Shown here one piece after another: positions 49,693 to 64,000 of a stretch of 64,000 nucleotides of DNA. Source of the DNA: Candidatus Latescibacterota bacterium (GTDB lineage: Bacteria; Latescibacterota; UBA2968); the NCBI GenBank assembly GCA_965207885.1, contig OZ242311.1:384001-448000 (forward strand), read 5' to 3'. The notes under the pieces are model-generated. The model did not search any database. It was not told the DNA's origin and saw only the letters and a program-made list of their open reading frames with translations. Both the position numbers and the translations under genes were made by a program. The first letter of the stretch is position 1; every line of letters starts with the position of its first letter.

Positions 49693-50061
49693 CTACTTGG
49701 TCGCTAAACTCTGGCTTTGCAAACCTGGTACGTTTTGAAGTTCGGCGTCATTTGTCACCAGAACGGCCTGATGACAAATAGCGGTGGCGGCAATAATTGC
49801 ATCCGGTAACTTGAGTCCCGATTCTCGTCGCAAGCGAATAGCTTCTTTCTTTATATCTTGGTCTATACCGTAAATAGCCAATTTGGCAAGTGTGTCACGG
49901 ATTAAGGTTTCTTCTGTTGAAGTTAATTTCGAAAAAGAAAGTAATTCTATTTCAGTAATTATTGAACATATAATTTCGCCACGAGGCAACAAGTCTGCCA
50001 GACGGTCATTGAAGCGCAGAATGAAAATGTTGGTATCTATCACAAAACGTTCAGAGTTCAT
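49693..50061 (-). CDS. vapC: VapC (PIN domain) toxin
   Basis: FVIDTNIFI, ITEIEL, LKLPDAIIAATA, LVTND; ATGA overlap with the antitoxin. Confidence 0.92.
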   Translation of the reverse strand: MNSERFVIDTNIFILRFNDRLADLLPRGEIICSIITEIELLSFSKLTSTEETLIRDTLAKLAIYGIDQDIKKEAIRLRRESGLKLPDAIIAATAICHQAVLVTNDAELQNVPGLQSQSLATK

Positions 50062-50303
50062 TTCTCCCAACCCCGATCCCATTCAGCCCGAAGCTTTCGC
50101 TGAAACGCCACCGGGTCATCAATGTCTCGAAACGCTTGAATTTTGCCATCAAGATCCGATAGGACATCTGCACCTTCTGTTTTTCTTTGTTCGTCTTCCT
50201 GCAGGTAAACGGCAACACGAGCCTTTCGACCAAATGCCTCGCGAAAGTCAGTAGGAAGTTTGCCGTCTTTGGCAATGACGATTTCTTTTTCAATCAATTT
50301 CAT
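50058..50303 (-). CDS. Cognate VapB-type antitoxin
   Basis: Small ORF directly upstream of vapC; DPVAFQRKLRAEW tail typical of PIN antitoxins. Confidence 0.8.
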   Translation of the reverse strand: MKLIEKEIVIAKDGKLPTDFREAFGRKARVAVYLQEDEQRKTEGADVLSDLDGKIQAFRDIDDPVAFQRKLRAEWDRGWEK

Positions 50304-50383
50304 GGTCTTTGTCCTTTCCTCATGCAATAAATGTACTGAATCACGCGAAATCGCGCCACCCTGTACATCTATATAGGCAGACT

Positions 50384-53300
50384 TCAAGCGGCACTTTCGT
50401 AATATGGCGATGGTAATTTGGGATAGGCGCGGTAGATGTGGCGGAATACGTCTTCGGTTTTTGTTTTTATGTCCTTTTCCGTGTATTTGTGAGGCAGGCC
50501 AGTTTCGTCGCTGAAGAGAAAGTCATAGATGGATGTCCGTACGGCGTCTCGGGTCGCTTCTTTTTCACACCATTGGTGGACGCGCAGATTGCTGGCTTTT
50601 AGTTTTTTTAAGAGACTGACGGCCACTTTTTTTATTTGTGTGATTTCGTTTGCGTTCAGATTGGGTTTTTTCAAGAGGTCGAAAATGGCAAGGGATTCTT
50701 CGTCGAGGCCCTCGCGAACAGCCCGGGTCTCTTCTTCATCCAATGCCTGCACCAGTTTGAGTAATGCCTCGAAGGTGCGCTCTATTGTTATCTGGTCTTT
50801 TTCGCGGTTGTACGCTGCTACGATTGCTTCGTAGTGGTGCTGGAAGTCCGTGCGTAATGGGTTTTGCTGCAGTAGGCGTTGCAATTTTTGTTCTACTGCT
50901 TGTCTGAGGTTTTGGACGGTGGTGTTTTTTTCCCGGATACGCACGAATTCTCGCTTCAGACGCTCGAAGTCTATCTGGCTGATGTCGTAAAGGCGCCGAT
51001 CTTCATCAGGATGCGGATTTGCAGGTACATCACTGACTGTGGGTTCAATGGCCGCATCTACTATCCGCTGTAATTCCATTAGAATGTCTGAGATGTCGGC
51101 CTGATTGCGGTCTTGCTGGAGGCTTTTGTACACGATGTCAATGGCGTCGCGGTCTTTGCGATATGTGTGGATGTTCTGGACGTTGACACAGGCTTTGTAT
51201 TTTTTGAATACTTCGCGGCACATGACTTCGAAGCGTTTGCGGGTTTCGTCGTTTTCGTTGACGGCTTCTTTGCAGGCTACGATCGCTGCGTTGCGCTGGA
51301 AGCCCGTTTTTTCAATGATGTCGTCCAGTGGTGCGTTGCGTTTGTCGAGGAAGTCTCGCACCAGGGCGATGGCTTCGGCGAGGTCTGATAGGAGTTCTTC
51401 GTCGGGTTTTGCGGGGTCGGTCGGTGTGCTATCTCCATCCGTTTGCGTGCCAGCGAAGGTTGCGAGTGCCTGGCGCAGGTGGACGAGGACGCCGCAGTAA
51501 TCTACGATCAGGCCGTTGTTTTTGTTTTCGTTTACGCGGTTGGCGCGGGCAATGGCCTGCATGAGGGTGTGGGCTTTGAGTGGTTTGTCGAGGTAGAGCG
51601 TTGATAGGCACGGGACATCGAAACCCGTTAGCCACATGGCGCAGACAATGGCGATGCGGAATGGGTGTTCCTCATCTTTGAAGGCTTCGTCCAAGTCCAT
51701 GCGTTGCTTGTTGCGGTACTGCGGCTTGTTCCTCATGGACTCGGGCAAGTCCATGCCTTCTTTGATGAGCCTGCGGTGCTGGATGATGTCCAGTTCCCAT
51801 TTGTTGAATTTTTCGATTTCGCCCTGTTCTTCGCTGATTACGACTGCTGCGCGGGTCTCGCGCATCCATTCGATCTTCTGATGCAGGTATGTTTTCTCTT
51901 CTTCATCCGTTGTCCGCGATAGCCTTGTTTCCAATTTTTGGATGTGTTCGTGCCAGTAGAACTCAATCAATTTGTGCATTCGCACACAGGTTATTTTGTC
52001 GATGCAGACCAGCATGGCTTTGCCGGTTTCCCAGGCGGTTGAGTAGTGTCGCGTGAAGTCCCGCGCCAGTTGGTCGAGCCGTTTGCCCGCGGTGATGATG
52101 TGGTAGGCGCGTTTGAGTTCTCGTTCGAGGTGCTGTTCCTCGTCGATGTCGCTGATTTCGGCCTCTTCCAATTTTTCGGCGATTTTTTCGTTCAGATCAT
52201 CAATTGCTACGCCGAGTTTGTCGCCGCGCGCGTCGTAGTAGAGGGGGAGCGTGGCGTTGTCTTCTACTGCACGCTGGAAGTCGTAGGTGGAGACGTAGTC
52301 GCCGAAGACGCGGCGTGTGATCTGGTCGTCTTTGAACAGGGGTGTGCCCGTGAAGCCCATGTAGGATGCGTTGGGCAGGGCGGCGCGCATGTTGGCTGCT
52401 AATTCGCCGTATTGGGTGCGGTGCGCTTCGTCGGTGATGACGATGATGTCGTCGCGCTGGGTGTAGCCTTTTTTGGGATCTATGTCCTCCTGGTTGAATT
52501 TCTGGATGAGGGAGAAGATGTGCGATTTGTGTTCTGTCAATAGCTGGTTCAGGTGTGGCCCGTCTGTTGCGCGACAAGGGTCTCGGTCGTTTACAACGCC
52601 GCAGCCAGCGAAGGTTTTGTAGATTTGCGTGTCCAAGTCTGTGCGGTCGGTGAGGATGAGGAAGGTGAAGTTGCCACCGAGTTTGCGGTGTACTTTGCGG
52701 GTGAAGAGTACCATGGAGTAGCTTTTGCCTGCTCCCTGTGTGTGCCAGAAGACGCCGAGTTTGCCCTGGCGTGCTTTGCGGTCGCGCACGGCATCAATGG
52801 CGCGGTTCACGCCGAGGAACTGGTGGTTGCGGGCGAGGATTTTCTTTGTTTCGCCGGATGTTTCGTCAAAGAGGATGAAGTTTTCTATGATGTCCATGAA
52901 GTCGCGTTTGTTGCAGACGCCCTTGAGGAGGGTTTCCATATCGACGACGCCGGGTTCTTCTTCGGACAGGCGTTTCCATTCGTGGAAGTGATCCCACTCG
53001 CTGGTGATAGAGCCGAGTTTTGCTTTTTCGCCGTTGCCAAACATGACGATGGCGTTGTGGTGGAAGATGTGGGGGATGGTGTCGTGGTAGTCCGAGTAGT
53101 TGCCGTTGTACGCGGCTTTGAGATCTCGGTGGATGTTTTTGCATTCGATGAAGAGGAGGGGCAGGCCGTTGACGAAGCCGATGATGTCTGCCCGTCTGCG
53201 GTAGAGGTCGCCCTTTATCCACAATTCGCGCACGCAGAGGAAGTGGTTGTTTTCGGGGGTTTCAAAATCGAAGATTCGGAGGCGTTCCCGCGTCTGCTCG

Positions 53301-53638
53301 CCGTTGGCGTTGCGGAATGTGACGGGTACGCCGTTGCGGATGAAATCGTACTTTTCGCGGTTGGTGGCGACGATGCTCTGCGAAGCAGTGGTGGATGTGA
53401 TTTTCCGGATTGCGTCGTTGTAGGCGTCTTCGGGTAGGCCGGGATTAAGAGTTCGCAGTGCGGTGAGCAGATAGCGTGTGAGCACTACTTCGCGGTCGGA
53501 GGTGCGACCAAGCAGGCTATCCTGTCCGAAGTCCTCGCTGTTATAGGCATAGACAGATTCCCAGCCGAGTTGCTGTTCGAGATACTCGGCTGTGGTCTGC
53601 TGAACGAGGGTGTCTTCAGTGTAAGGGGTTGGGTTCAT
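50384..53638 (-). CDS. hsdR: Type I restriction enzyme R subunit
   Basis: RRADIIGFVNGLPLLFIECK nuclease motif, WHTQGAGKS, DEAH, FTGTP, MWLTGFD.P, QAIARANR. Confidence 0.97.
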   Translation of the reverse strand: MNPTPYTEDTLVQQTTAEYLEQQLGWESVYAYNSEDFGQDSLLGRTSDREVVLTRYLLTALRTLNPGLPEDAYNDAIRKITSTTASQSIVATNREKYDFIRNGVPVTFRNANGEQTRERLRIFDFETPENNHFLCVRELWIKGDLYRRRADIIGFVNGLPLLFIECKNIHRDLKAAYNGNYSDYHDTIPHIFHHNAIVMFGNGEKAKLGSITSEWDHFHEWKRLSEEEPGVVDMETLLKGVCNKRDFMDIIENFILFDETSGETKKILARNHQFLGVNRAIDAVRDRKARQGKLGVFWHTQGAGKSYSMVLFTRKVHRKLGGNFTFLILTDRTDLDTQIYKTFAGCGVVNDRDPCRATDGPHLNQLLTEHKSHIFSLIQKFNQEDIDPKKGYTQRDDIIVITDEAHRTQYGELAANMRAALPNASYMGFTGTPLFKDDQITRRVFGDYVSTYDFQRAVEDNATLPLYYDARGDKLGVAIDDLNEKIAEKLEEAEISDIDEEQHLERELKRAYHIITAGKRLDQLARDFTRHYSTAWETGKAMLVCIDKITCVRMHKLIEFYWHEHIQKLETRLSRTTDEEEKTYLHQKIEWMRETRAAVVISEEQGEIEKFNKWELDIIQHRRLIKEGMDLPESMRNKPQYRNKQRMDLDEAFKDEEHPFRIAIVCAMWLTGFDVPCLSTLYLDKPLKAHTLMQAIARANRVNENKNNGLIVDYCGVLVHLRQALATFAGTQTDGDSTPTDPAKPDEELLSDLAEAIALVRDFLDKRNAPLDDIIEKTGFQRNAAIVACKEAVNENDETRKRFEVMCREVFKKYKACVNVQNIHTYRKDRDAIDIVYKSLQQDRNQADISDILMELQRIVDAAIEPTVSDVPANPHPDEDRRLYDISQIDFERLKREFVRIREKNTTVQNLRQAVEQKLQRLLQQNPLRTDFQHHYEAIVAAYNREKDQITIERTFEALLKLVQALDEEETRAVREGLDEESLAIFDLLKKPNLNANEITQIKKVAVSLLKKLKASNLRVHQWCEKEATRDAVRTSIYDFLFSDETGLPHKYTEKDIKTKTEDVFRHIYRAYPKLPSPYYESAA

Positions 53639-55395
53639 TTGGGTGGTCGATCAAAATAAAAACCCAACAGACTTTTAGAGGGATCTTCGTCGGTGAGGGT
53701 CAGCCGAACATGCTTATCGAAGTTAAAGCCATCGCTAAAGTCATCTCGCGGAACCATATCGGAATTTAGAGTACAAATGTACTGTACATTATTTGCACTT
53801 GATACCTTGCTCGCATGCTCAAATGCAAGTGCTCGTTGCCTGGAGTCAACACCGTCATAAAGACCACTGTCATGAATCAAGAAATTGAGTCTATCATTCT
53901 GTTTTGACATGATTTGTAATAGCATCAAATCGAAGCAGAAAATTTTCATCTTCTCAATGCCTTCGCTACCACTTTTGTCTATCTCGACATCGTACTTGAA
54001 CCCTGTTTCATCAATATTAATCACCAAGCGCCCGGGTGCCTCGTAAAGTGCCTGAGAGTTGTCGTTGAAAAGACGGAGTGGAAGGCTCCAAATATCTCTA
54101 CGTTCTTCGTGATCTTGCTCGGCAATCTTAGTCAATTCAGCCTTCGCTATATTTATATTGCGTTTCCGCGTGGTTCTATCCTTTATTTCTTCAAGCCAAG
54201 TAAGTTTCTGTTCTAAATTGCTGCGTATTTCAATGATGCGTTCCTGGAGTTTAGCCAGTTCTTGCAGTGCTCCGTGCGTTTCAAGAATTCTAAGCAAATC
54301 AGCCCTCTCATCAGTTAGTCGTCTAATTTCATCGTTTTGGACCCTGATTTTACGTTCTATGCGCCTGATTTCCGTTTCGAGAAAGACTCGCCTATTCTCG
54401 ATAATTTTCGAATGAAACTCTTTGGCTTCGGTAAGAGTACGACGAACCGAGTCAGAAAAAATCACACCAGTTTCTTCGTAGATATTGTCAATGGCTGTGT
54501 CAGAAGGGGGTGTCTCTGCTTCTACTGACTCTCTGTACCGAGACAAACGTCTTTGATCGACAATGTTCTTGTTGGTCAAATTGTGAATGGTTTCAGTGAT
54601 CTTATCAGCTTCGTTCTGAATTGTTTCGTACTGTGGGTGTACTTTGAATCCTTCTAAAGCATCTGATTCACGTTTGAGTTGACTTTCCAATTGAACGCAT
54701 TCCGCCTCTAACTCGCCAACTGAACCCCTTGCGCCTTCCATAGCACCGGACCTAATCGCTTCATCAATTGCCTTAATGCCCTTTTCTTGATCTTTCAATT
54801 CTTGCCATTTAGACGCATTCTCCCAGTTCATTTCAAGCAAAAGCGCGATGTGAAGTTGCCTGTCCCATGTCGCTTGGTGACGGGTATGACTGAATGGATC
54901 TATGTAAGCGGCGGTGCCGCGTCTTATGAAATATGAGATCAGACTACGGAAAGAAGGCCTGTGCCTGGTGGCATAGTCAGAGTGCAAGCCAAATAAAGCC
55001 CACCCCAAGAGTGCCCGCCAGCGGTCTAATTTGAACCTACCTCCTCTGAGGAGATCGAAACTATCAGGTTGTTCAATCCAACCAGTTGTCGGGCCTTCTA
55101 TATATAGCCAGTTCGGACTTTCAATAGCGCGGGTCACTTTCACACGGTTACCCTCAAGTGTAATTTCCAATGTAAATTCCCAATCTTGCAATGGATCTAT
55201 AGAGAGGCCCTGCCCCTTGCGAACGTTGGAGCCCAAACAAAAGTCAATAATGTCAATTAGAGTAGATTTACCCAGACCGTTTCGCGTGTCCTTTTGAGTA
55301 GATTCCTCAGTGCGGTCTGCTAAAATGACATTCAGTCCCGATGCAAATTCCACTGTATGAAATGAAGATTGGTTAGCAGTAATTCGATGAATCAT
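53635..55395 (-). CDS. lmuB: SMC-like ABC ATPase (DUF2326) of an ABC-3C/Lamassu system
   Basis: Walker A RNGLGKST, coiled coil, signature-like SGSEG, FLIHDS..DGVD, YICTLN. Confidence 0.88.
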   Translation of the reverse strand: MIHRITANQSSFHTVEFASGLNVILADRTEESTQKDTRNGLGKSTLIDIIDFCLGSNVRKGQGLSIDPLQDWEFTLEITLEGNRVKVTRAIESPNWLYIEGPTTGWIEQPDSFDLLRGGRFKLDRWRALLGWALFGLHSDYATRHRPSFRSLISYFIRRGTAAYIDPFSHTRHQATWDRQLHIALLLEMNWENASKWQELKDQEKGIKAIDEAIRSGAMEGARGSVGELEAECVQLESQLKRESDALEGFKVHPQYETIQNEADKITETIHNLTNKNIVDQRRLSRYRESVEAETPPSDTAIDNIYEETGVIFSDSVRRTLTEAKEFHSKIIENRRVFLETEIRRIERKIRVQNDEIRRLTDERADLLRILETHGALQELAKLQERIIEIRSNLEQKLTWLEEIKDRTTRKRNINIAKAELTKIAEQDHEERRDIWSLPLRLFNDNSQALYEAPGRLVINIDETGFKYDVEIDKSGSEGIEKMKIFCFDLMLLQIMSKQNDRLNFLIHDSGLYDGVDSRQRALAFEHASKVSSANNVQYICTLNSDMVPRDDFSDGFNFDKHVRLTLTDEDPSKSLLGFYFDRPPK

Positions 55396-55619
55396 TGCTT
55401 CACCCTCACAATCAGACTGTTTTCTAGACTTATAGCACCGACGATGTGAAGCATGTCAAGTGCCAGCACAAACCGTTCAAAGGTGCCTATCGCGTCTTCC
55501 TCTCGAACGGTCTCCCACAGGCTGGTCACCGTCTGTGGTTGGTCAATCTCTTTGAGCAGGATGGCACCAACACCGATTAGAGCCTGGTCTTGGGAAATAT
55601 GCTTTGACGGAAGGATCAT
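55392..55619 (-). CDS. lmuC: ABC-3C middle component (Lamassu small subunit)
   Basis: 75 aa, MILPSKH...GA.LL...TV..LW...F..ALD.L..G; 4-nt overlaps with both neighbours. Confidence 0.82.
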   Translation of the reverse strand: MILPSKHISQDQALIGVGAILLKEIDQPQTVTSLWETVREEDAIGTFERFVLALDMLHIVGAISLENSLIVRVKQ

Positions 55620-56377
55620 CTCTCAAACACCTCGCAGGTCTCAAACAGGTAAACCAGTACCGCTAATCCGGCGGACCGCTTGGCTTGCTCCACGAAGCCT
55701 CGCTGTGCAAATCTACACATTAAATCGAAAAGAACGTCTCCCGAATGCCCGTCTTGCCTCAACCGATAGTACTCTTGTAGAAATCCCACCTTCAAGCGTT
55801 CTGGAAAATCTTGATCCGTCTGCGCCACACTTTCAATAAACGCTCGCACCTCACGCGAAATACTGAGGCCCATTGTAATGATCATTCGAGAGCCGTTTCC
55901 CAATGCGTTTTTATTTATTTTATTTTCAGGCGCGATCACCGAAAAGTCATTGTCAGGGGCAGTCTGTTGTAGATTAATTTGCATGATCCACAGGGTGGCT
56001 TCTTCCAATTCTGGGAATCCAATATCTACGAATGCATCGGCTATTGCATCACGGACCGTTTGTTCGTGTTCACTCTTGATCTTGTGGAGGCGTTCTACGG
56101 GATAGTCGTTCTCACCTTGCGGCATCGCGTCAATTATGGTGTGGCAGGTTCCGCACAGATAGATGAGATTGTTATAATGGTCTCTATTCTTAGGGGGCAT
56201 ATTTTTATCATAACGAGCTGATCCAGGATTTTTACCAGCGATATGTGCTGCTTCTCCTACGTTGATAGGATCACCGCTTTCACTGTCTGGTGACAAATTC
56301 TGTCCACAACCGGGCAAAGCACATATGTCTCCACTTCGGTAGGCCAAGAGGATTTTAGTTCGGTTGGATACGCTCAC
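55616..56377 (-). CDS. lmuA: Lamassu effector: HNH endonuclease + ABC-3C C-terminal domain
   Basis: CALPGC...GEAAHI...NLIYLCGTCH..ID HNH motif; KINKNAL and AVLVYLFETCEVFER C-terminal domain. Confidence 0.85.
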   Translation of the reverse strand: MSVSNRTKILLAYRSGDICALPGCGQNLSPDSESGDPINVGEAAHIAGKNPGSARYDKNMPPKNRDHYNNLIYLCGTCHTIIDAMPQGENDYPVERLHKIKSEHEQTVRDAIADAFVDIGFPELEEATLWIMQINLQQTAPDNDFSVIAPENKINKNALGNGSRMIITMGLSISREVRAFIESVAQTDQDFPERLKVGFLQEYYRLRQDGHSGDVLFDLMCRFAQRGFVEQAKRSAGLAVLVYLFETCEVFER

Positions 56378-56559
56378 ACCGCCACCTCCCCATTCATCAA
56401 CTGCAGTAGGAGCACGTCGCGGGTCTGGGTGAGTTGTTCATTCGACTGATGGAGTTTCTCAATTTGAAGAACAATCGGAATGATCTGCTCCATAAATATA
56501 TCAGCGGTCCTGTCATATACCTGCAAAAACGTAACTCCCTGAAAGTCTAATTGCGACAA
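56374..56559 (-). pseudogene. hsdS: Orphan 3' fragment of an hsdS gene (conserved C-terminal helix)
   Basis: QIEKL...LTQTRDVLLLQLMNGEVAV* is homologous to LTQARDLLLPRLMSGEMAV* at 63775-63840; no upstream TRD. Confidence 0.8.
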
Positions 56560-56688: not shown

Positions 56689-59600
56689 TTAAATTTGGTA
56701 AGCGGAATCACTCCGACGGCGCGGGATAGATTGTAGCTGTGGCTCGCTCCCGCCGAGATTTGCCAACCGTCGGGCACTTTCTCGTTCAATCAGTTTTTGG
56801 TTCCGAAGCATTCTCATTTTCGCGTCATGTTCGGCAACATTTACTTCCGCTTCTCGATCATATCCCTCTGCTAATTTTCGGAGTGTAACAGCAAAGCGGT
56901 GATAGCCTGCATTTTCAACGTCTTCGGCTTTTTGTCTGTATTTTTCGGCAAGCTCTTGTTCTGGTTTTCCCGTTGGGTCAACTGTGTGAACCCCGCGAGA
57001 GTTGTACATTCCAGAACGGAAACTATTCCTCATTTCTTCTTCATCCGTCGCATTGAGCGCAGAGGCGACTGTTCGGTGTATCCACAACCCTTCTGGATCA
57101 GGTGGCGCATGAATGAGAACATTTCCTATATGCATAAGAGCGGCCTCAAGATGTCCGGATTCATTACACGCTTCTTTTGTTTTCTTAAGCCACTTCTCGA
57201 ATTGGTCAGGTAAAAATTGACCATCTGATTGCTTACCCGGCGGAGTTTTCCATTTATCAAGGAGTTCGTATGCGTTATCAGCAATGGCTTTATCCTGTTC
57301 GCTAAGTTCTTTTGGAGATTTCATTTCATTTTTTGATCGATAGATAAGGCGTATTAGTTCGCAGAAAAAATCCGGGTCAGAAGATAGGCGATTTTCTAAT
57401 GATTTCGGTGATGTATCAGCATAATAAGGTTCATTCAGCAATTTCAGGTAGGCCCATTCAATTTGAAAAAGAGCATCAGGATCGGTGTCTGGGTCGTCCT
57501 GTAAAGCCTTTATGATTTCGATGATGCTATGCAGATCCACCACATGTGAAGGTTCTTTAGAAGAAATCGCAGCCATGAGAGCTTTTACACTTCGGGTTTT
57601 GTCCAATGGCTGTTTACTGTGTATCATTTTATGCAGACAGGCGATAGCCGCATGGGGTCTGTCATACTCTATCAGTTTGTCTATGGCAATGCTGAGGTCG
57701 CCATCAGTGTGATCTTGGTATGGGTTTGCACTGGTTTTGTTCCAGTACCCCTTTTCGGACTCGCCCAGCCAATCTGTTGCGCGATGCCAGGTCTCCTTTG
57801 TAAAGGGTAGATAGGATAGGAACTGACCTGTTTGTGCTGCTGACCAGTTTGAGGTGTTAAAGCTATCAACCCATTCCCATCCATTGACATTTTGGCGACA
57901 ACTGACATAAGCACTTGTAAGCAGCGCGAGTTTGGTGTTATCTGTTTCCAGCAATGCAGGAAGGATGTGTTTGTCAGTTTCCTCCTGTGCTATAGTACCC
58001 AGAGAACGTCCAACAAACCAGGGTGCCTCAACACTTTCGGCGAATTGAAATACCATATCCATCCCACCATCAGCCAGAATCTCTTTTATCGCTTGCTGAC
58101 GGCGTTGATCGAGTTTTTGGCGGTGTTGATCAAGTTTTTCCTTTTGCTGTGGGTCTCCCCAGGTTCCTTCATAGAGAGCCAAATCATTGTGACCAAATAA
58201 TCTGCGATGAAGATGAAATGGATTTTGAGGCGCGAGTTTTGCGGCAACATCCTCGATTTTGGAAAGGATTTTATCGCTTAAAGCCCATTCTGCGTCAGAA
58301 AAGCGTCTGTGTTTTGAGGCAAGCTTAGTTAGTTGAGACCAGATTTTTAGACGCTGATCTTCAGATTTGCCGCATATCTCTTCTGATGATAGATACTCGA
58401 GCAATTTGTCAAAAGAAGGCTTTGGTAAGTTATCAAGATCACCAATCAACTCGGTTAATTTATCAATATCATTGCTTGCCATCGAAACCGCTATTTCAGC
58501 ATAAGAGGTAATTTGCTTCCAGTACTCCTCTTGAATAACACGATCTTCCCAATCATCGGGAATGGTATTTCGCCACGCAGGTTTGTGAGTGCCGGAGGAC
58601 ATCTGATGCTGATTTGGCAACAGATTGATCAATAGGTTCCATGCCACATCTGGGACTGTATTTATCAGCGTTTTTACAGCAACTTCGCGCTTCTCTATGG
58701 GTGCAATAGTCTGCGGATGCCACGGGAGTATAATTTCTGTCAGCGAATTGGCTGGGCGGTTCGCCCAATTCCCACCGGGATCATGTTCCGCAAGATCACC
58801 GAGAATTACGCACACTCGGACGAGATACTCAGCATCCCAGGCAAGGGTTTCCAATGCCCAGAGTAGGCCAACGAGGTAATTTCTACCCCCCACACCTCCG
58901 CGTTCCTGTGAAAACAATTCGTCAAATGGGCAAGGAGATTGGTCCAACGCATTTTCTACCGCGTTCAAAAAATCATTTGGGGCTGCTTCTGCCAGCACAG
59001 GGAGAAGATCATTTAGACTACCCCACAATACCCAATCAGCATTCTTAAGAATTTCGCGAACAACACGACTGGCTGTGTCTTTTGGCTTCCAACCTTGATG
59101 TTGTGGCGAAAAGTTCTTCAAAGCATCGGGATTAGTGCTGAGAAGTGCCAGCGTTTCAGCTAATCCTTTCCGAAGACCGTTTGAGTATTTTGGTACCTTG
59201 TCGTAAATATTGGCGGCATAGCGTTCATCAGCAGGTAAGTCAAACTGAGGATTGCGCTCGGACAATACTGTAACCGCACACTGTTTCAGGACTTTCAGCG
59301 TGTCATCAAAAACACGTCCGCCTAATGCCTGCCACATTCCTTTTCGATCAATGACTTGCCATCTCCCGTTTATAAACGTCACAGGGCTTATGGCTTGTTG
59401 TAACATCTCCCTCAGTTTGGGAATCCATTTTGTGTAATCCTCTTCATTGACAAGCTGACGCACAATTTCTAGATCGGCTTCGTTTAGCTCATTCCACGCG
59501 CCAAGAAGGTTGGCAATCGCCAGGTCAGAAGCGTATTCGTGCTGATTCCAGTCTGAATGGGTTTGTTGTTCGTCAGAAGACTGCAATCGAATTGTCTCAA

Positions 59601-60033
59601 TTTCTCGCAAACTGAGCGCGCCGAGGGACTCGCCATTGCGTCCATACCAATGTCCTTTCCAGGCAGTTGGAATGCCTTGCATGGCGGGCGGAATTTTGAA
59701 CATGACAACGCGGCCACCTGGGTGATTGAGCACATAGATTTCATCGAATGTGAGGTTATCAGTTTCATTGGCAATTTCCTGTTTCAAGCTGTCAAGGTGC
59801 GCTGGATTTTCGCGGAACTGACTGCCGCAAACCGAATGATCATTTTTTACACCGAATATCAACCAACCACACGCTTGCTTTTTCAAGTTGGCTTCGTTGG
59901 ATAGCGCAGAGAAATACTTGCCCAACTTCTCGAAGTCATACTGATTTTGAGCTTCTTTGAACTCGAGCCATTCTGTCTCGTGCGGAAGTTCACACAGACG
60001 GTCGAGTTCCTGACGAAGTTCAGATTGGTTCAT
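56689..60033 (-). CDS. Schlafen/AlbA_2 domain fused to a ~900-aa helical domain with a VapB-like C-terminal tail
   Basis: ETEWLEFKE, YFSALSNEAN, GWLIFGV at the N-terminus; likely ATG at 60033 after GGGAGA; terminal LIERESARRLANLGGSEPQL. Confidence 0.8.
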   Translation of the reverse strand: MNQSELRQELDRLCELPHETEWLEFKEAQNQYDFEKLGKYFSALSNEANLKKQACGWLIFGVKNDHSVCGSQFRENPAHLDSLKQEIANETDNLTFDEIYVLNHPGGRVVMFKIPPAMQGIPTAWKGHWYGRNGESLGALSLREIETIRLQSSDEQQTHSDWNQHEYASDLAIANLLGAWNELNEADLEIVRQLVNEEDYTKWIPKLREMLQQAISPVTFINGRWQVIDRKGMWQALGGRVFDDTLKVLKQCAVTVLSERNPQFDLPADERYAANIYDKVPKYSNGLRKGLAETLALLSTNPDALKNFSPQHQGWKPKDTASRVVREILKNADWVLWGSLNDLLPVLAEAAPNDFLNAVENALDQSPCPFDELFSQERGGVGGRNYLVGLLWALETLAWDAEYLVRVCVILGDLAEHDPGGNWANRPANSLTEIILPWHPQTIAPIEKREVAVKTLINTVPDVAWNLLINLLPNQHQMSSGTHKPAWRNTIPDDWEDRVIQEEYWKQITSYAEIAVSMASNDIDKLTELIGDLDNLPKPSFDKLLEYLSSEEICGKSEDQRLKIWSQLTKLASKHRRFSDAEWALSDKILSKIEDVAAKLAPQNPFHLHRRLFGHNDLALYEGTWGDPQQKEKLDQHRQKLDQRRQQAIKEILADGGMDMVFQFAESVEAPWFVGRSLGTIAQEETDKHILPALLETDNTKLALLTSAYVSCRQNVNGWEWVDSFNTSNWSAAQTGQFLSYLPFTKETWHRATDWLGESEKGYWNKTSANPYQDHTDGDLSIAIDKLIEYDRPHAAIACLHKMIHSKQPLDKTRSVKALMAAISSKEPSHVVDLHSIIEIIKALQDDPDTDPDALFQIEWAYLKLLNEPYYADTSPKSLENRLSSDPDFFCELIRLIYRSKNEMKSPKELSEQDKAIADNAYELLDKWKTPPGKQSDGQFLPDQFEKWLKKTKEACNESGHLEAALMHIGNVLIHAPPDPEGLWIHRTVASALNATDEEEMRNSFRSGMYNSRGVHTVDPTGKPEQELAEKYRQKAEDVENAGYHRFAVTLRKLAEGYDREAEVNVAEHDAKMRMLRNQKLIERESARRLANLGGSEPQLQSIPRRRSDSAYQI

Positions 60034-60190
60034 ACTGAAATCTCCCATTCTGATTCTACCATAAGATTGGGTATGCATCAGACAGGCGGCAGTTTCGAAT
60101 ATATTACTTCAAATTTTCCACCGTGTTCTTGTTGCAACTTCGCTTCTTTTATATTTTGGTCTCTTGGCAATGTTTCCGCACAGTCCAAAC

Positions 60191-61147
60191 TTAGACAGAG
60201 ACCCGGTCAAATGCCTCTGTAAAAGTAATGCTCCCATTCTGCATTTCACGTCTGATGTTAAGAATATCTGATGGAGTCGGCAGGCCATCAATTTGCAATT
60301 TGCAAGAAATATTAAGACGTTCAAAAAGAGAGTTGATTTCCTTGACGATATGATCTCTTAATACAGCCAGTGCCCAGTGAAAATTAACCAATCTATGGAA
60401 AACGAAAAACTCTGTTGATCGTTTTTCGGACAAATCTCTTCGATTCCACCCCCATTTTTTGGTAACTTGTCCGCAGTATATATCAGCCATTCTTACATAC
60501 TCTTGAAAATCAAAATTACTGTCTTGCAAGCCTTTTGCTAAATCTTGACTCCAAAAATTTGGAGGCAAACTTTCATATTGTCCCAGGTTCTTTATCATAG
60601 CTTTATATCCCTTTCGTCCACCTAACATCGGGGGCATCTCGAAGTACCAAATGCGCTTTGATGGGACCAAGACAAAGTTCTTTTCCCACAGGTCTCGGTC
60701 CCTTTTGGGAACCAGTTGCAGAAAGTAGCCGGGAAGACGTAATAATCTTCTTGATGTGAAACCATAGAGATGGGCAATATTGTTGTCATCAAATATTATT
60801 TCGTGTACTGAGCATCCTTCATGGGAAAGGTGTCTTACTATATTTTCAATAACATCACAGACTACTCTATTTAGATCATGTCGTCTGATTAGATCATGTT
60901 GGTCATTCGGATTATATCCATATTGCATTTCTCTAATAAGTTGTCTTGCCTTTTCACACTCCCTCTCATCTCCATCCATGCTAACAGAAAACGCTTTCTG
61001 TTTCGTTGTATGACCTCCAATTGGCATTATTGCCAAATATATATCTTCGGTGAACATATGTATGTTCAGGTTGTTATCTGTTTCGTTTGAAAGGCTGGGA
61101 AAATGTCTGGCGACTGTCGGCTGTACTATGTCGTGATACCCCATCAT
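60191..61147 (-). CDS. Hypothetical protein (318 aa)
   Basis: ORF with ATGA overlap to the upstream 845-aa gene; no recognisable motif. Confidence 0.8.
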   Translation of the reverse strand: MMGYHDIVQPTVARHFPSLSNETDNNLNIHMFTEDIYLAIMPIGGHTTKQKAFSVSMDGDERECEKARQLIREMQYGYNPNDQHDLIRRHDLNRVVCDVIENIVRHLSHEGCSVHEIIFDDNNIAHLYGFTSRRLLRLPGYFLQLVPKRDRDLWEKNFVLVPSKRIWYFEMPPMLGGRKGYKAMIKNLGQYESLPPNFWSQDLAKGLQDSNFDFQEYVRMADIYCGQVTKKWGWNRRDLSEKRSTEFFVFHRLVNFHWALAVLRDHIVKEINSLFERLNISCKLQIDGLPTPSDILNIRREMQNGSITFTEAFDRVSV

Positions 61148-63681
61148 TCTTCACCTCCATCATTACGAAGAATGTCTTGATATCTTCGTTTCGCCCTTTG
61201 CAAAGCATTGGGGAAATGCTGTCGGTTACGTCCAAAATCTAAACTTTCTCCATCCTCGCAATTCCGCAGATAGAAGTTGATGAAGACGTCAATTCCGTCA
61301 TAACGACTTAGATGACGTTCACCGACAAATATGCGGACTAATACATCTTCATGATCAATTTCTATATCCGACGTTATTGCTTCAATTCCATCAACCTCAC
61401 GGCGAGGAACATTCCTTAACACATTCATTATTTTTTGTTTCCAACTGGTGCGTAGAACTGAACGATGTGGTATTATTCCAAATGCACTTTCTGTAAAGGC
61501 AACTGCTCCAGCCAATAGAGGTAATGGCGATTGCTCACGTTCTCGGTTTAAGTATTTGTCCCAGGCCTGTGTCACTGTCTCCCATAACAACACATTTTCA
61601 TGGTAATCAGCCATCAATTTTGCATACCCGCTGATATCTATAAGATCCAATAATGGTGCCGCAGCTATCTTAAAATCCTGTTGAGCATGCCAATCTGTAA
61701 TTGATGTTGTTGGTTTGAGTTTATCAAACTTCAATAGAGCACCATGTAAATACGGTTTAAAGACATTTTTTAGTAAGGCGGTGTCATTCTTTAATAGAGC
61801 ATCAAATGCAACTTCGCCTGAAGTGTGAAGAAACTGCCCTGCATAATCTGGATAATTCTCCGGACGGTTAATAAGAGCAAGTAATATATTTTGTTTTGAC
61901 ATCTGTGACAGCAATTCATTTTGTCTGGCATCGCTCTTGGAACGTAGTTCTTCAAGGTCTAACTGGGACCAGGGCAAACCATCTATGTATCGCTCACTGG
62001 TCAGTTCATCCCAGACCTTCGGCCAGATATTATTGAGTTGATCGCTTACCTTATGCCAGTACTCCCACTCCCGACTCATTATGGCCGCTGCCAGCCATGG
62101 TCGACTACAGTCAGTTGCTTTTTTAATACTGGTTTTAAATAAATCTGCACTTTTGATAATCAATGTCTCGGCACTGGCAACAAATTGCTTTGCCTCTACT
62201 TGGCGCACAAGCTCTGTAAGATACCAAAGAGGTGAAACTACATGTCCTTCTACTGTTTTTTCAAACACGAGCCGCGGTTTCAACCACTCAACTCGTGAAA
62301 GACAATGTTTTGAAAATCCCTGACGGTAGATACTGGCCTCTTTGGTCCAGCGTACTGAGGAGACCATGTTTTTTATAGTCTGAGAGCTAATACTCTCCAT
62401 AGTTTCTCGGTAGGTCAAAGCTACAGATATAGTAAGAGCAGATAATCGTTCTACCAGTCCTAATTTCTCCAGAGTTCCTTGTAAATTGCTATCGGTTTGT
62501 TTAGTGAATTGGTCTAAAACTGTTTCCATCAAATTCTCTACCAAAACAAAGGCTCTATCCACGCTCCCTTCACGCGCAAGTTTTTTTATGTAAACCCCTG
62601 TATAATCAAATAGACCAAATAGATCGGTATAACGTCCGTTCACTAAATTGACCTCAATACATCTCTTGACAATTGGAATGCACCTTTCCTCAATCCATTC
62701 ATTATTGGTTGTTATTTCTGGCTGAATCATTGTGCTTGTCTGGTGAGCAAGGTCCACAGCCGTATCGCCTGTTCGATACCAGTCTCGGTGTTGGTATTGC
62801 TGCTGATACCAAACACTTTCAGTAGGTATTTTACGTTTCGCATCTTCATAAACAATTAAAAACTTCAGAACATTTTTGGATAATTCTATGAAAGGTTTGC
62901 CATTTAAATGTGGCTCTTTCGATGTGATGTCTGACAGTGTTTTAAGTGTGTCCAGTGTTGCTGAAGCCTTTTTGTGGGCATGATTTTGGAATGATTGATC
63001 CTGCCATCTGAATCCGCCTATAACTACCATGCTCAGCCAGCGATGAAGCTCCTTAAAGAGATGATGTGATAGCGCAGTGGGGTCAAAAAAATAGAAAGCC
63101 CGTTGCCCAAGTTTCACGAATGAAATAATCCCTATTCCTGCCAATATTGTTACCAGTGGTATCGCGAAATGCACTTTGGGAAATCCCATTTCACGGAAGG
63201 CAATTAAGATCAAGCCGAGAAATGTCAAAAAGGCGAGAAAGCCCATATAGACATTTCCAAATCTCTCATGTGCCAACAGATCTCTAATATTATTTGGTAC
63301 TCTCGCATATGTGGTGCTACCCACCATGCTAAGACCTGCATAATACAGACCGATGAAAACTCCTCCAATACCGCTGATCGTTGCCAACAACGTCACATAA
63401 TCACTATCGTCGGGAATTGCAATACCAATGCTCCCATAGTATGAGTATAAATAGGAGTCAATCGTTTGAATCAGTGCAGCAATCACAATACAGATTAATA
63501 GCAGCGCCCAGGTGATCCTGAAGAGGTGTCTAAATGATTGGTAATTAGCTCTCTCTTCATTAAGCCTGTATCGAACACTATATATACGTGCGCCCAACCA
63601 AAAAAAAATATTTCTCAGGATACTACGTAGTAACCAAAAGCCCCGTGATTGATATAGTTGTAAAAGGAATCTGTTCTTCAT
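61144..63681 (-). CDS. Hypothetical membrane protein (845 aa; N-terminal TM bundle, large soluble domain)
   Basis: About 4-5 hydrophobic helices in the first ~200 aa; AT-rich; no recognisable catalytic motif. Confidence 0.85.
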   Translation of the reverse strand: MKNRFLLQLYQSRGFWLLRSILRNIFFWLGARIYSVRYRLNEERANYQSFRHLFRITWALLLICIVIAALIQTIDSYLYSYYGSIGIAIPDDSDYVTLLATISGIGGVFIGLYYAGLSMVGSTTYARVPNNIRDLLAHERFGNVYMGFLAFLTFLGLILIAFREMGFPKVHFAIPLVTILAGIGIISFVKLGQRAFYFFDPTALSHHLFKELHRWLSMVVIGGFRWQDQSFQNHAHKKASATLDTLKTLSDITSKEPHLNGKPFIELSKNVLKFLIVYEDAKRKIPTESVWYQQQYQHRDWYRTGDTAVDLAHQTSTMIQPEITTNNEWIEERCIPIVKRCIEVNLVNGRYTDLFGLFDYTGVYIKKLAREGSVDRAFVLVENLMETVLDQFTKQTDSNLQGTLEKLGLVERLSALTISVALTYRETMESISSQTIKNMVSSVRWTKEASIYRQGFSKHCLSRVEWLKPRLVFEKTVEGHVVSPLWYLTELVRQVEAKQFVASAETLIIKSADLFKTSIKKATDCSRPWLAAAIMSREWEYWHKVSDQLNNIWPKVWDELTSERYIDGLPWSQLDLEELRSKSDARQNELLSQMSKQNILLALINRPENYPDYAGQFLHTSGEVAFDALLKNDTALLKNVFKPYLHGALLKFDKLKPTTSITDWHAQQDFKIAAAPLLDLIDISGYAKLMADYHENVLLWETVTQAWDKYLNREREQSPLPLLAGAVAFTESAFGIIPHRSVLRTSWKQKIMNVLRNVPRREVDGIEAITSDIEIDHEDVLVRIFVGERHLSRYDGIDVFINFYLRNCEDGESLDFGRNRQHFPNALQRAKRRYQDILRNDGGEE

Positions 63682-63774: not shown

Positions 63775-64000
63775 TCAAACCGCCATCTCCCCACTCATCA
63801 ACCGCGGCAGAAGCAGGTCTCGGGCTTGGGTGAGTCTGCGTATTTCGGTAGAAAGTATGTCAATTTGTCGAAGGATCGGCGATATAATGCCTGTAAACTT
63901 GTCAATTAAACTGGTTTCAGGAACTACAAAAGGAATGAGCTTAAAGGTGTTTCGGATAATCGCATCGAAGATTGCGCCAACTGCTCGACTGCGAAATTGT
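63775..64000 (-). CDS. hsdS: Type I R-M specificity subunit, 3' end (truncated by the window)
   Basis: Manual translation: ...AVGAIFDAIIRNTFKLIPFVVPETSLIDKFTGIISPILRQIDIL...LTQARDLLLPRLMSGEMAV*. Confidence 0.9.
   Translation of the reverse strand, partial: QFRSRAVGAIFDAIIRNTFKLIPFVVPETSLIDKFTGIISPILRQIDILSTEIRRLTQARDLLLPRLMSGEMAV

What the first reader, a model, noticed from the sequence alone, without database searches (positions are those of the whole stretch)
60191..63681. Translationally coupled orphan pair: 845-aa membrane protein + 318-aa protein
Seen: ATGA stop/start overlap at 61144-61147, a TM bundle at the N-terminus of the large protein, and a ~150-bp gap before the Schlafen gene. 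Inference: the pair may be a self-contained two-gene system, such as membrane-based abortive infection or DNA-entry exclusion, independent of the third gene.
Basis: inference. Interest (0 to 1): 0.7.

Follow-up and report, generated by a model that had tools for sequence, protein, structure and literature searches.

The report
Membrane protein with portal-fold partner
A mobile two-gene cassette that sits inside restriction-modification gene clusters in many bacterial phyla pairs a four-helix membrane protein with a small protein predicted to have the fold of a phage head portal, which points to an undescribed kind of anti-phage defence.

Summary
Two minus-strand genes, A (845 aa, 61144-63681) and B (318 aa, 60191-61147), overlap by ATGA. 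A has four conserved N-terminal TM helices. The Schlafen gene starts 157 nt further on.

The pair is not an orphan. A has 316 database relatives and B has 1292 cluster representatives. None carries a Pfam, NCBIfam, PADLOC or PHROG name.

The two genes are always linked. B follows A in 28 of 31 A-seeded genome loci; the other 3 hold A fragments. A precedes B in 33 of 33 testable B-seeded metagenome loci.

The Schlafen gene is independent. Four congeners carry hsdS joined directly to Schlafen, an empty site, so A/B is a discrete low-GC insertion.

The context is defence. In 16 of 25 genome loci the pair lies within three genes of, or embedded in, defence genes: 14 have R-M or Hma genes, 2 other PADLOC candidates.

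The unexpected result is B's fold. Its AlphaFold model (pLDDT 88.5) matches only tailed-phage portal proteins, with Z up to 12.2. There is no sequence similarity, and neither gene was found in phage collections.

Best reading: an uncharacterised membrane-anchored defence pair built around a portal-like protein. The mechanism is inferred. A's own structure and complex predictions could not be run.

The parts
63775..64000 (-). 3' part of the live hsdS gene (full gene = L002 1776-2906). Context: the cassette begins right after it.
   Evidence: 5'-open ORF ending 63775. (PF01420 Methylase_S, E 3e-30).
61144..63681 (-). Gene A. It encodes an 845-aa inner-membrane protein with a cytoplasmic N-terminus, four TM helices and a cytoplasmic, mostly helical C-terminal part of about 650 aa.
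   Evidence: 316 relatives. No Pfam, NCBIfam, PADLOC or PHROG hit. dN/dS 0.32 against the congener.
63109..63525 (-). Codons for residues 53-191 of A, the four TM helices. Residues 101-200 (TM2-TM4, including the invariant F109-I-G-L-Y-Y114 run within the GGVFIGLYY consensus) are the most conserved part of the whole protein.
   Evidence: hydropathy. (invariant columns). (entropy 0.71-1.5 bits against a mean of 1.76).
61152..61158 (-). GGAGGTG ribosome-binding-like run inside the end of gene A, 4 nt before B's ATG.
   Evidence: sequence read directly.
61144..61147 (-). ATGA stop/start overlap of A and B (translational coupling).
   Evidence: The same overlap occurs in 13 of 24 other loci.
60191..61147 (-). 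Gene B. It encodes a 318-aa soluble protein with a predicted phage-portal fold.
   Evidence: AF2 model, pLDDT 88.5, pTM 0.87. (the PDB searches list only portal proteins; every functionally named BFVD row but one is a portal or a phage protein). 1292 cluster representatives. dN/dS 0.24.
60434..60454 (-). Codons of the W232-G-W-N-R-R-D238 motif, part of the second most conserved block of B. It lies in the loop just before the 32-residue helix 246-277.
   Evidence: invariant in 8 of 8. (W234 invariant; G233 and R237 at least 90% in 42 sequences). (entropy 1.42). (secondary structure).
60030..60049 (-). Relic of the 3' end of an older hsdS (AATGGGAGATTTCAGTATGA). It marks the right-hand border of the A/B insertion and overlaps the true Schlafen start codon (60033-60031).
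   Evidence: alignment with the empty sites of G089 and G083. (exact position; 0 chance matches expected).
56689..60033 (-). Neighbouring Schlafen/AlbA_2 gene. It is not part of the pair and is shown for context. The listed ORF start 60078 runs through the hsdS relic.
   Evidence: PF04326, E 2.9e-12..

Best explanation
A and B form one mobile two-gene module that works as a unit and most likely defends against phages or other invading DNA.

A is an inner-membrane protein. It has a cytoplasmic N-terminus, four TM helices that are its most conserved part, and a cytoplasmic C-terminal domain of about 650 aa found only in this family. B is a cytoplasmic protein with the fold of a tailed-phage portal protein.

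Proposed mechanism (inferred): B assembles portal-like on the cytoplasmic domain of A at the membrane. There it acts as a pseudo-portal that engages something that normally meets a real portal. Candidates are the phage large terminase with its DNA, capsid or scaffold subunits, or the DNA itself through the conserved WGWNRRD loop. A's conserved TM module then turns this contact into a membrane-level outcome: either ion leak and abortive infection, or sequestration of the captured machinery.

Shown here:
- strict linkage and co-evolution of the two genes
- discrete insertion with an empty site in relatives
- horizontal spread
- embedding in R-M and Hma systems
- purifying selection
- predicted topology of A
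- predicted portal fold of B

Inferred and not shown: A-B binding, B oligomerisation, the phage target, and the outcome for the cell.

My odds:
- conserved functional module: 0.97
- B truly has the portal fold: 0.85
- defence function: 0.65
- pseudo-portal or decoy mechanism specifically: 0.25
For: Linkage
- B lies directly after A in 28 of 31 loci found with A. The 3 others hold only A fragments.
- A ends at B's start in 33 of 33 B-seeded metagenome loci that have a full B and at least 400 nt upstream. Several of these are near-duplicates, so about 28 are distinct.
- A pair at about 20% identity keeps the same order (hhalign probability 99.4%, E 5.5e-21).
- A and B distances correlate at r 0.927, with 0 of 2000 Mantel permutations as high.

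Discrete cassette
- hsdS is joined directly to Schlafen by ATGA in four congeners by tblastn. The junction was read at DNA level in two of them.
- A relic of the hsdS end borders the insert.
- GC is 0.406 against 0.504 for the window.

Sporadic and mobile
- B occurs in 3 of 168 genomes of the phylum and 1 of 301 in the genus of G169, the genome behind L019, which titles Pseudomonas putida.
- Seven phyla are intermixed in the A tree.
- On one plasmid the pair is flanked by IS66 copies.

Defence context
- 16 of 25 genome loci have defence genes within three genes.
- The pair is embedded in type I R-M in the window and in L003, L009, L012, L022, L029 and L031, with hsd genes also flanking it in L028. 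It is embedded in Hma in L015.
- It is adjacent to type IIG/ISP (L016, L018, L021), type III (L005) and type II (L028) systems.
- 6 of 19 metagenome loci also have defence neighbours.

Real genes
- dN/dS is 0.32 for A and 0.24 for B.

Fold of B
- AF2 model pLDDT 88.5, pTM 0.87.
- Foldseek PDB: 15 hits at E<=1e-3, and every listed row is a portal.
- VIA-align against 48,161 chains: all 50 listed entries are portals. The best is Z 11.9, rmsd 4.6 A, 239 aligned.
- Second look: Z 12.2 to T4 gp20, with 127 chains at Z>=8.
- BFVD: 29 hits at E<=1e-3.

Not viral
- No B in 50,697 phage records.
- No A or B in IMG/VR motif scans.
- None of the Pfam matches of the 137 neighbour proteins names a capsid, terminase or tail family.

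Membrane module
- TM2-TM4 is the most conserved stretch of A, which argues for more than an anchor.
Against: - No experiment exists and no expression data were found.
- 9 of 25 genome loci and 13 of 19 metagenome loci show no recognised defence neighbour.
- The portal resemblance is fold-level only. Profile-profile comparison with eight HK97-type portals gave probability 0.3%. PF04860 does not detect B. PHROGs and PDB sequences give nothing. TM-scores are moderate (0.43-0.48) and rmsd is 4-5 A.
- The model is a prediction from 42 sequences.
- B's conserved surfaces and dN/dS below 1 fit a conserved partner better than an arms-race sensor. Only residues 71-90 are indel-rich.
- Nothing tested shows that B forms a ring or binds A.
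- A has no recognisable effector domain. Its own structure could not be predicted here.
Confidence: 0.5

Rival explanations
1. DNA-entry gate. B forms a ring at the cytoplasmic face of the membrane, held by A. It clamps or threads incoming linear DNA, as a portal grips DNA through its tunnel loops. Entry is blocked or slowed so that the neighbouring restriction enzymes can act. This would be superinfection exclusion that cooperates with R-M, not a decoy for head assembly.
For: - The pair sits in the same orientation inside or beside R-M operons of types I, IIG/ISP and III and beside Hma.
- The conserved basic WGWNRRD loop lies directly before the long helix. From recalled portal anatomy, that is where portals carry their DNA-contacting tunnel loop.
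- A is located in the membrane.
Against: - The pair also occurs without any R-M neighbour in at least 9 of 25 loci.
- No DNA-binding or oligomer test could be run.
- The mapping of the loop onto the tunnel loop is an inference from secondary-structure order, not from a residue alignment.
Confidence: 0.2
2. The pair is not a defence system. It is accessory cargo with another role, for example a membrane stress, transport or addiction function built on a DUF2254-like membrane protein with B as its regulatory subunit. It merely hitchhikes in the recombination-prone R-M islands.
For: - The N-terminal third of an A homologue resembles DUF2254-type membrane proteins in Atlas models (TM 0.65-0.75 normalised by the shorter protein).
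- Many loci lack defence neighbours.
- TA modules and IS elements are frequent neighbours.
Against: - Embedding between hsdM, hsdS and hsdR, and between HmaA and HmaB, in the operon's orientation and in independent arrangements is the pattern that identified validated defence genes in Payne et al. 2024 (bioRxiv 10.1101/2024.01.29.577857; I read the abstract, section 10 and 'find' passages).
- The PF10011 HMM does not match A. hhalign to a real DUF2254 protein gave probability 0.6%.
- This reading does not explain the portal fold.
Confidence: 0.15
3. The portal likeness is convergence or a modelling artefact. B is an alpha/beta protein of another kind, and the phage connection is meaningless, whatever the pair does.
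For: - There is no sequence or profile similarity to portals.
- TM-scores are below 0.5 and rmsd is 4-5 A or more.
- The tool's own note says middling Z values are common.
Against: - Two aligners over three searches of solved structures list only portal proteins.
- In BFVD, 26 of the 36 named rows of the 50 shown are portals. The rest are 8 COG4695, 1 COG5511 and 1 HAD_like. The other 14 rows carry no name.
- 37 representative chains reach Z>=8, and about 240 of 318 residues are aligned.
- The model is confident (pLDDT 88.5) and was made without templates.
- The order of elements is helix, beta-rich insert, helix, loop, long helix, C-terminal helices. From recall, this is the portal order.
Confidence: 0.15

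Closest known systems
Portal proteins of tailed phages and gene transfer agents (T4 gp20, HK97, lambda gpB, SPP1 gp6, G20c, RcGTA)
   Same: The predicted fold matches over about 220-250 of B's 318 residues: Z 9.7-12.2, model residues about 15-308. B is near the size of the smallest chains listed (285-370 modelled residues).
   Different: - No sequence or profile similarity.
- Not found in phage genomes.
- None of the neighbours' Pfam matches names a terminase, capsid or tail family.
- Always paired with a membrane protein.
- Located in R-M and defence islands.
- Ring formation was not tested.
Kiwa (KwaA/KwaB)
   Same: Kiwa is a two-gene defence system in which a membrane protein forms a complex with a soluble partner. 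[quoted passage not shown]
   Different: No PADLOC model, which as I recall includes KwaA and KwaB, matches A or B. From recall, not from a call, A is about four times larger than KwaA and KwaB belongs to a different family (DUF4868).
Genes embedded in type I R-M, BREX, DISARM and Hma systems (the HEC and PDC candidates of Payne et al. 2024; TgvAB in Vibrio cholerae VPI-2; PrrC)
   Same: The genomic signature is the same: a cassette nested between hsd genes or between HmaA and HmaB. TgvAB is a two-gene system embedded in a type I operon in which both genes are needed (PMC11411939, passages read).
   Different: A and B match none of the 5027 PADLOC v2.0.0 models, a set that includes PDC and HEC families. 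The proteins are unrelated to GmrSD-like enzymes, ABC ATPases and RNases.
DUF2254 (PF10011) predicted membrane proteins
   Same: Both have an N-terminal 4-TM module followed by a soluble segment. Atlas models of A homologue P0021 align to a DUF2254 cluster (TM 0.65 by the shorter protein, 197 residues). They also align to a 338-aa cluster of which 11% carry DUF2254 (TM 0.75, residues 22-346).
   Different: The HMM does not match. hhalign gives probability 0.6%. A carries about 500 further residues with no structural neighbour. DUF2254 itself has no known function: 4 papers hold the word and, by title and abstract start, none is about its function (listing only).

Membership tests
Tailed-phage portal protein | Portal fold (wing, stem helices, clip, long wing helix, crown) | tested here: met
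   The AF2 model of B matches only portals: Z up to 12.2 with 244 aligned and Foldseek probability 1.00. This rests on a predicted model. The domain-by-domain mapping was not done.
Tailed-phage portal protein | Sequence membership in a portal family (for example PF04860, or the PHROG portal families) | tested here: not met
   Pfam gives no hit at E<=10. PF04860 finds no match in G000 or G072. PHROGs gives no portal family. hhalign against 8 HK97-type portals gives probability 0.3%.
Tailed-phage portal protein | Encoded in a virus or prophage beside terminase and capsid genes | tested here: not met
   tblastn against 50,697 phage records found nothing. IMG/VR motif scans found nothing. None of the Pfam matches of the 137 neighbour proteins names a capsid, terminase or tail family.
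Tailed-phage portal protein | Dodecameric ring with a central DNA channel | not testable with these tools
No coordinates were accessible.
Kiwa and all other systems in PADLOC-DB v2.0.0 (including PDC and HEC candidates) | Match to the system's protein HMMs | tested here: not met
   0 families for A and 0 for B at E<=0.01. In the same scan the neighbouring ABC-3C genes hit PDC-M68.
DUF2254 (PF10011) | Match to the family HMM above its cut-off | tested here: not met
   (0 of 51 A members). (own genome). (no PF10011 match at any of the A genes of the 5 carrier genomes; the single match, in G171, is a separate DUF2254 gene). (hhalign probability 0.6%).
DUF2254 (PF10011) | Shared fold of the 4-TM module plus the first soluble segment | tested here: inconclusive
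   The Atlas structure search was run on homologue P0021, not on the window's protein. It gave TM 0.65-0.75 by the shorter chain and 0.21-0.33 by the query.
Anti-phage defence system (operational definition) | Non-random placement in defence islands, or embedding within known systems | tested here: met
   16 of 25 genome loci and 6 of 19 metagenome loci have defence neighbours. The pair is embedded in type I R-M and in Hma. No formal background rate was computed.
Anti-phage defence system (operational definition) | Protection of a host against phage or plasmid | not testable with these tools
   This needs a bench experiment.

The most novel reading that the evidence does not exclude
Bacteria have taken over the portal fold, a hallmark of tailed-virus heads, as an immune component. 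A membrane-tethered pseudo-portal ring would capture the phage packaging motor with its DNA, or nucleate dead-end head assembly, and would signal through a conserved four-helix membrane module. This would be immunity by mimicry of a viral assembly hub, and the first cellular, non-viral family with the portal fold.
Probability: 0.25. Interest if true: 0.92.

Novelty: categorically new. Interest (0 to 1): 0.8.

Why it matters
If the pair defends cells, it adds a system whose parts resemble nothing in the current defence catalogues. It would also add a principle not yet described: a host copy of a viral structural hub used against the virus.

Portal and terminase are among the most conserved phage proteins. 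They are already known targets of sensors, for example Avs4 bound to a portal (PDB 8dgf, listed). A mimic of the portal would be a complementary strategy.

The result also bears on the origin of the portal fold, which is so far regarded as virus-specific.

On the practical side, the family is large (1292 cluster representatives). It occurs in cultured, non-pathogenic isolates, so it can be tested directly. The empty-site comparison in this genus also gives a clean example of how cassettes are stacked inside one hsd operon.

Tried and rejected
Family scans
- Pfam, NCBIfam, PADLOC and PHROGs scans of A and B found no family.
- PDB sequence searches with both profiles gave only chance-level rows.

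DUF2254 lead
- It came from the Atlas.
- It is not supported by the HMM or by hhalign.

Portal homology at sequence level
- hhalign gave probability 0.3%.

Prophage remnant
- Rejected.

Fused or split forms
- The near-length search showed only proteins of about 845 aa.
- The 'shorter' search of A residues 350-845 found only fragments.
- The top 150 B relatives are 201-383 aa long.

Repeats and signals
- The direct-repeat scan did not pick up the hsdS relic, which was found by alignment instead.
- The promoter and terminator scan and an RNA fold of the B-Schlafen spacer gave nothing above shuffles.

Structure of A
- Only the Atlas's model of a 56%-identical homologue was searched.

Complex prediction
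- B x3 was the job sent; A-B was considered and not sent.

- Two Atlas queries were not held.
- Expression: no RNA holder is listed among 20 runs.

Metagenome scan
- It failed with alignments A4 and A2 because their patterns were too loose.
- It worked with the 8-sequence alignment A6. It therefore samples closer relatives of B.

Tree
- The careful ML tree did not finish, so the quick tree was used.

Rows dropped
- Seven already identified Hsd and Schlafen proteins were left out to fit the size limit. They were identified by tblastn.
- L004, L006 and L008 were left out of the neighbour counts because they have no flanks.
- L064 was left out as a duplicate of L062.

Literature
- Searches found no paper describing a portal-like protein in a defence system or island.
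- bioRxiv supplements, such as the candidate tables of Payne et al., could not be seen and might list this pair.
Full report
**What is there**

On the minus strand the window holds gene A (61144-63681, 845 aa) and gene B (60191-61147, 318 aa). A's TGA and B's ATG overlap as ATGA at 61144-61147. A GGAGGTG run lies 4 nt upstream of B's start.

Hydropathy gives four TM segments in A, at about residues 53-75, 95-120, 144-164 and 171-191. They recur in the 11 family members sampled from alignment A3. Loop charges put both termini in the cytoplasm.

The next gene downstream is a 1129-aa ORF with an N-terminal Schlafen/AlbA_2 domain.

**Wider setting**

The window is G000:C1:384001-448000. The genes belong to one long minus-strand type I restriction-modification operon packed with inserts. 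In order:

1. Fic
2. hsdM
3. a zeta-like AAA protein
4. a 140-aa ORF without a Pfam family
5. DUF488
6. an Xre/MbcA-type antitoxin
7. hsdS
8. A
9. B
10. Schlafen
11. a 61-aa relic of an hsdS C-terminus
12. a three-gene ABC-3C system (PADLOC PDC-M68)
13. hsdR
14. PIN

**Not an orphan**

- A has 316 relatives at E<=1e-3. The 120 listed are mostly about 845 aa long and 45-89% identical. Every one that a source names is called a hypothetical protein, and none has a Pfam domain.
- A profile of B finds 120 proteins in the word-indexed search.
- In the exhaustive search the B profile finds 1292 representatives of 50%-identity clusters at E<=1e-3, 531 of them at E<=1e-30. The 150 listed are 201-383 aa long.
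- Neither protein matches Pfam, NCBIfam, PADLOC or PHROGs. Neither matches any PDB sequence.
- RefSeq calls both plasmid copies 'hypothetical protein'.

**The two genes are one unit**

A motif scan of one genome per species found 31 loci in at least seven phyla.

- tblastn finds a B homologue directly downstream of A in 28 of the 31 loci.
- The other three hold only pieces of A. L033 is cut next to a transposase. The L026 ORF equals A residues 85-355. L024 covers residues 7-293.

The reciprocal, B-seeded scan of metagenome contigs gave 43 loci.

- In all 33 loci with a full B and at least 400 nt upstream, A-coding sequence runs up to B's start.
- Seven loci have under 120 nt upstream and cannot be judged.
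- Three loci hold only a C-terminal B fragment, a 147-aa ORF in a toxin-antitoxin island.
- Some loci are near-duplicates (L056/57, L058/59, L062-65), so about 28 are independent.

Further support for a single unit:

- A pair at only about 20% identity in another family of the phylum keeps the same order.
- Pairwise distances of A and B over 25 pairs correlate at r 0.927. None of 2000 Mantel permutations reached this value.
- Against the congener (L003 = G072), dN/dS is 0.32 for A and 0.24 for B. The flanking hsdM and hsdR give 0.11 and 0.14, at similar dS. Both are therefore real genes under purifying selection that evolve faster than their neighbours.

**Independence from the Schlafen gene**

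- A Schlafen homologue follows the pair in 1 of 31 genome loci, the congener, and in 0 of 43 metagenome loci.
- Full-length Schlafen homologues (66-84% identity) occur in eight other species of the genus, two of them with one stop.
- B is present in only one of the 20 other species searched.
- In four of those species hsdS runs straight into Schlafen. In the two aligned at DNA level the junction is GTATGAATC, a stop/start overlap.
- The window keeps a 20-nt relic of that older hsdS end, now immediately before the Schlafen ATG at 60033-60031.

A/B, together with the 3' end of its own hsdS, is therefore a discrete insertion. Its GC is 0.406, against 0.504 for the window and 0.534 for hsdR. The true gap between B and Schlafen is 157 nt. 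The 60078 ORF start is an artefact of reading through the relic.

**Mobility**

- B is in 3 of 168 genomes of the phylum, G000 included.
- B is in 1 of 301 genomes of the genus of G169. That genome lies behind L019, which titles Pseudomonas putida.
- The own genome holds one copy of each gene.
- In the quick ML tree of A, Bacillota, Verrucomicrobiota and Latescibacterota rows nest among Pseudomonadota, and Acidobacteriota sits with Binatota.
- Three plasmids carry the pair. On one conjugative plasmid it sits with a VapBC module between two IS66 copies.
- Decayed copies exist: L023, L029, L031 and L033.

**Context**

I called three genes on each side of the pair in the 25 genome loci that have flanks. 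I scanned 137 proteins against Pfam and PADLOC. Seven Hsd or Schlafen proteins already identified by tblastn were left out for size.

Sixteen of the 25 loci have defence genes within that distance.

- Type I R-M around the pair:
  - L003, L009 and L012 lie between hsdS and hsdR.
  - L029 and L031 lie between hsdM and hsdS.
  - L022 is embedded on the opposite strand.
  - L017, L025 and L028 are adjacent.
- Type IIG/ISP enzymes directly upstream: L016, L018, L021.
- A type III methylase and helicase: L005.
- A type II pair: L028.
- HmaA upstream and HmaB downstream: L015.
- SoFic or PDC candidates: L010, L020.

The remaining nine loci are L007, L011, L013, L014, L019, L023, L027, L030 and L032. 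They show housekeeping genes, mobile-element genes or only generic hits.

Of 19 metagenome loci with flanks (66 proteins), six have defence neighbours. These include hsdR-hsdS-A-B-hsdM (L054) and DISARM DrmD (L075).

None of the Pfam matches of the 137 neighbours names a capsid, terminase or tail family.

This is the 'embedded gene' signature used by Payne et al. 2024 to predict and validate defence systems (bioRxiv 10.1101/2024.01.29.577857; I read the abstract, section 10 and 'find' passages). Their candidates are in the PADLOC copy searched here. The neighbouring ABC-3C genes hit PDC-M68, but A and B hit nothing. I computed no formal background rate.

**Fold of B**

An AlphaFold2 model of the window's B was made from a 42-sequence alignment without templates. 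It has mean pLDDT 88.5 and pTM 0.87.

| Search | Main result |
|---|---|
| Foldseek, PDB | 15 hits at E<=1e-3 (best 7.9e-5, probability 1.00, TM 0.43-0.48). Every row listed is a portal of a tailed phage, an archaeal tailed virus or a gene transfer agent. |
| VIA-align, 48,161 representative chains | 37 chains at Z>=8. All 50 entries listed are portals. Best: T4 gp20, Z 11.9, rmsd 4.6 A, 239 aligned. HK97 Z 10.5, SPP1 Z 9.8, P22 Z 7.1. |
| VIA-align second look at Foldseek's candidates | Z 12.2, 244 aligned. 127 chains at Z>=8. |
| Foldseek, BFVD | 29 hits at E<=1e-3. |

Of the 50 BFVD rows shown:

- 26 are named portal
- 8 are 'COG4695 phage-related protein'
- 1 is 'COG5511 bacteriophage capsid protein'
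- 1 is 'HAD_like'
- 14 are unnamed

The alignments span model residues about 15-308, which is nearly the whole protein.

The order of elements in the model is:

1. helix 92-110
2. a beta-rich stretch 112-170 with one short helix
3. helices 177-228
4. loop 229-245
5. a 32-residue helix 246-277
6. a strand
7. two C-terminal helices

From my recollection of portal anatomy, this is stem helix, clip, stem helix, tunnel loop, long wing helix, crown. That mapping is an inference and was not tested residue by residue.

The most conserved blocks of B are, in order:

- the LREH segment inside the long helix (residues 261-270, entropy 1.16)
- residues 31-40 (entropy 1.34)
- the WGWNRRD motif in the loop (residues 231-240, entropy 1.42)

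**Is B a portal by descent?**

This cannot be shown.

- hhalign against eight HK97-type portals taken from prophages of the same phylum gives probability 0.3%.
- PF04860 does not see B.
- B is absent from 50,697 GenBank phage records by tblastn.
- Motif scans of IMG/VR found neither A nor B. Scans of the same kind found 31 genome loci with A's motifs and 43 metagenome loci with B's.

B is thus a cellular or plasmid-borne protein family with the portal fold, not the portal of a known virus.

**What A looks like**

The ESM Atlas holds a model (pTM 0.70, pLDDT 0.75) of homologue P0021, which is 56% identical to the window's A. Its structural neighbours are:

- its own family (TM 0.75-0.85)
- a 338-aa cluster covering residues 22-346 (TM 0.75 by the shorter chain; 11% of members carry DUF2254)
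- a DUF2254 cluster (TM 0.65; 197 residues aligned)
- nothing above TM 0.33 for the remaining roughly 500 residues

Other points on A:

- The DUF2254 HMM and hhalign do not support family membership.
- DUF2254 has no known function (listing only).
- The most conserved part of A is TM2-TM4 (residues 101-200), including the invariant F109-I-G-L-Y-Y114 run of the GGVFIGLYY consensus. This suggests that the membrane module does work beyond anchoring.

**How it most likely works**

The shown facts are:

- an obligate pair
- translational coupling
- co-evolution
- a membrane protein with a large cytoplasmic domain
- a portal-fold partner
- defence-island embedding

From these I infer a membrane-anchored complex in which B, probably as an oligomer, presents a portal-like surface.

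The reading I favour is immunity by mimicry. A pseudo-portal engages the packaging motor, head-assembly subunits or DNA, and A's TM module produces the outcome.

The main rival is a DNA-entry gate that cooperates with R-M.

Less likely readings are a non-defence accessory function, or a meaningless fold resemblance.

**Novelty**

Five literature searches found no paper on a portal-like protein in a defence system or island.

The pair is absent from PADLOC v2.0.0.

Supplementary candidate tables of bioRxiv preprints could not be read and might list these genes.

Noticed in passing
window 56374-56559 (-) and 60030-60049 (-): Each embedded cassette in this hsd operon is preceded by a remnant of an hsdS 3' end. 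A 20-nt relic lies before Schlafen. A 61-aa ORF lies before the ABC-3C genes, and 21 of its last 42 residues are identical to the live HsdS C-terminus. Cassettes seem to be stacked by recombination in the conserved hsdS 3' region.
   Followed up: partly
window 53635-56377 (-): A three-gene ABC-3C system lies between the Schlafen gene and hsdR: an HNH-CTD10 effector, middle component MC6 and a DUF2326 ABC ATPase, which together match PADLOC PDC-M68A/B. Its last gene overlaps the hsdR start. In the congener this slot holds PDC-M03A/B instead.
   Followed up: partly
window 56689-60033 (-): Residues 182-1079 of the Schlafen/AlbA_2 protein match phrog_18693 (unknown function) at E 2.8e-118. In four congeners the gene follows hsdS directly. 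In the two aligned at DNA level it is coupled to hsdS by an ATGA overlap. The listed ORF start 60078 is too far upstream.
   Followed up: partly
L002 3437-10130 (beyond the window's end; window coordinate = L002 coordinate + 61999): Between hsdM and hsdS lie a zeta-toxin-like AAA protein, a 140-aa ORF without a family, a DUF488 protein and an Xre/MbcA/ParS-type antitoxin. A Fic protein precedes hsdM.
   Followed up: no
window 49693-50387 (-) and 48555-49670 (-): A PIN-domain gene lies right after hsdR, with a 109-aa ORF just upstream that may be its antitoxin. A 371-aa ORF without any Pfam family follows.
   Followed up: no
L040 5482-13536 (Burkholderia glumae plasmid NZ_CP021077.1): A CopG/VapC pair and the A/B pair lie between two copies of the same IS66 element on a conjugative plasmid, an arrangement like a composite transposon.
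   Followed up: no
L015 5553-18717: Here the A/B pair lies between HmaA (E 2e-167) and HmaB (E 2e-118), followed by a PDC-M07A-like ATPase. It is therefore embedded in an Hma system and not in R-M.
   Followed up: no
L082 1194-1637; also L081 and L083: A 147-aa ORF equals the C-terminal half of B, including WGWNRRD. It stands without A between a small ORF pair upstream and a P-loop-motif ORF downstream. I read these as HigB/HigA-like and zeta-like from the sequence alone, with no family scan. The ORF is probably a decayed remnant.
   Followed up: partly
window 39541-42273 (+): A 910-aa ORF with no Pfam family lies directly upstream of an 865-aa protein that has CarboxypepD_reg and TonB-receptor Plug domains.
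   Followed up: no
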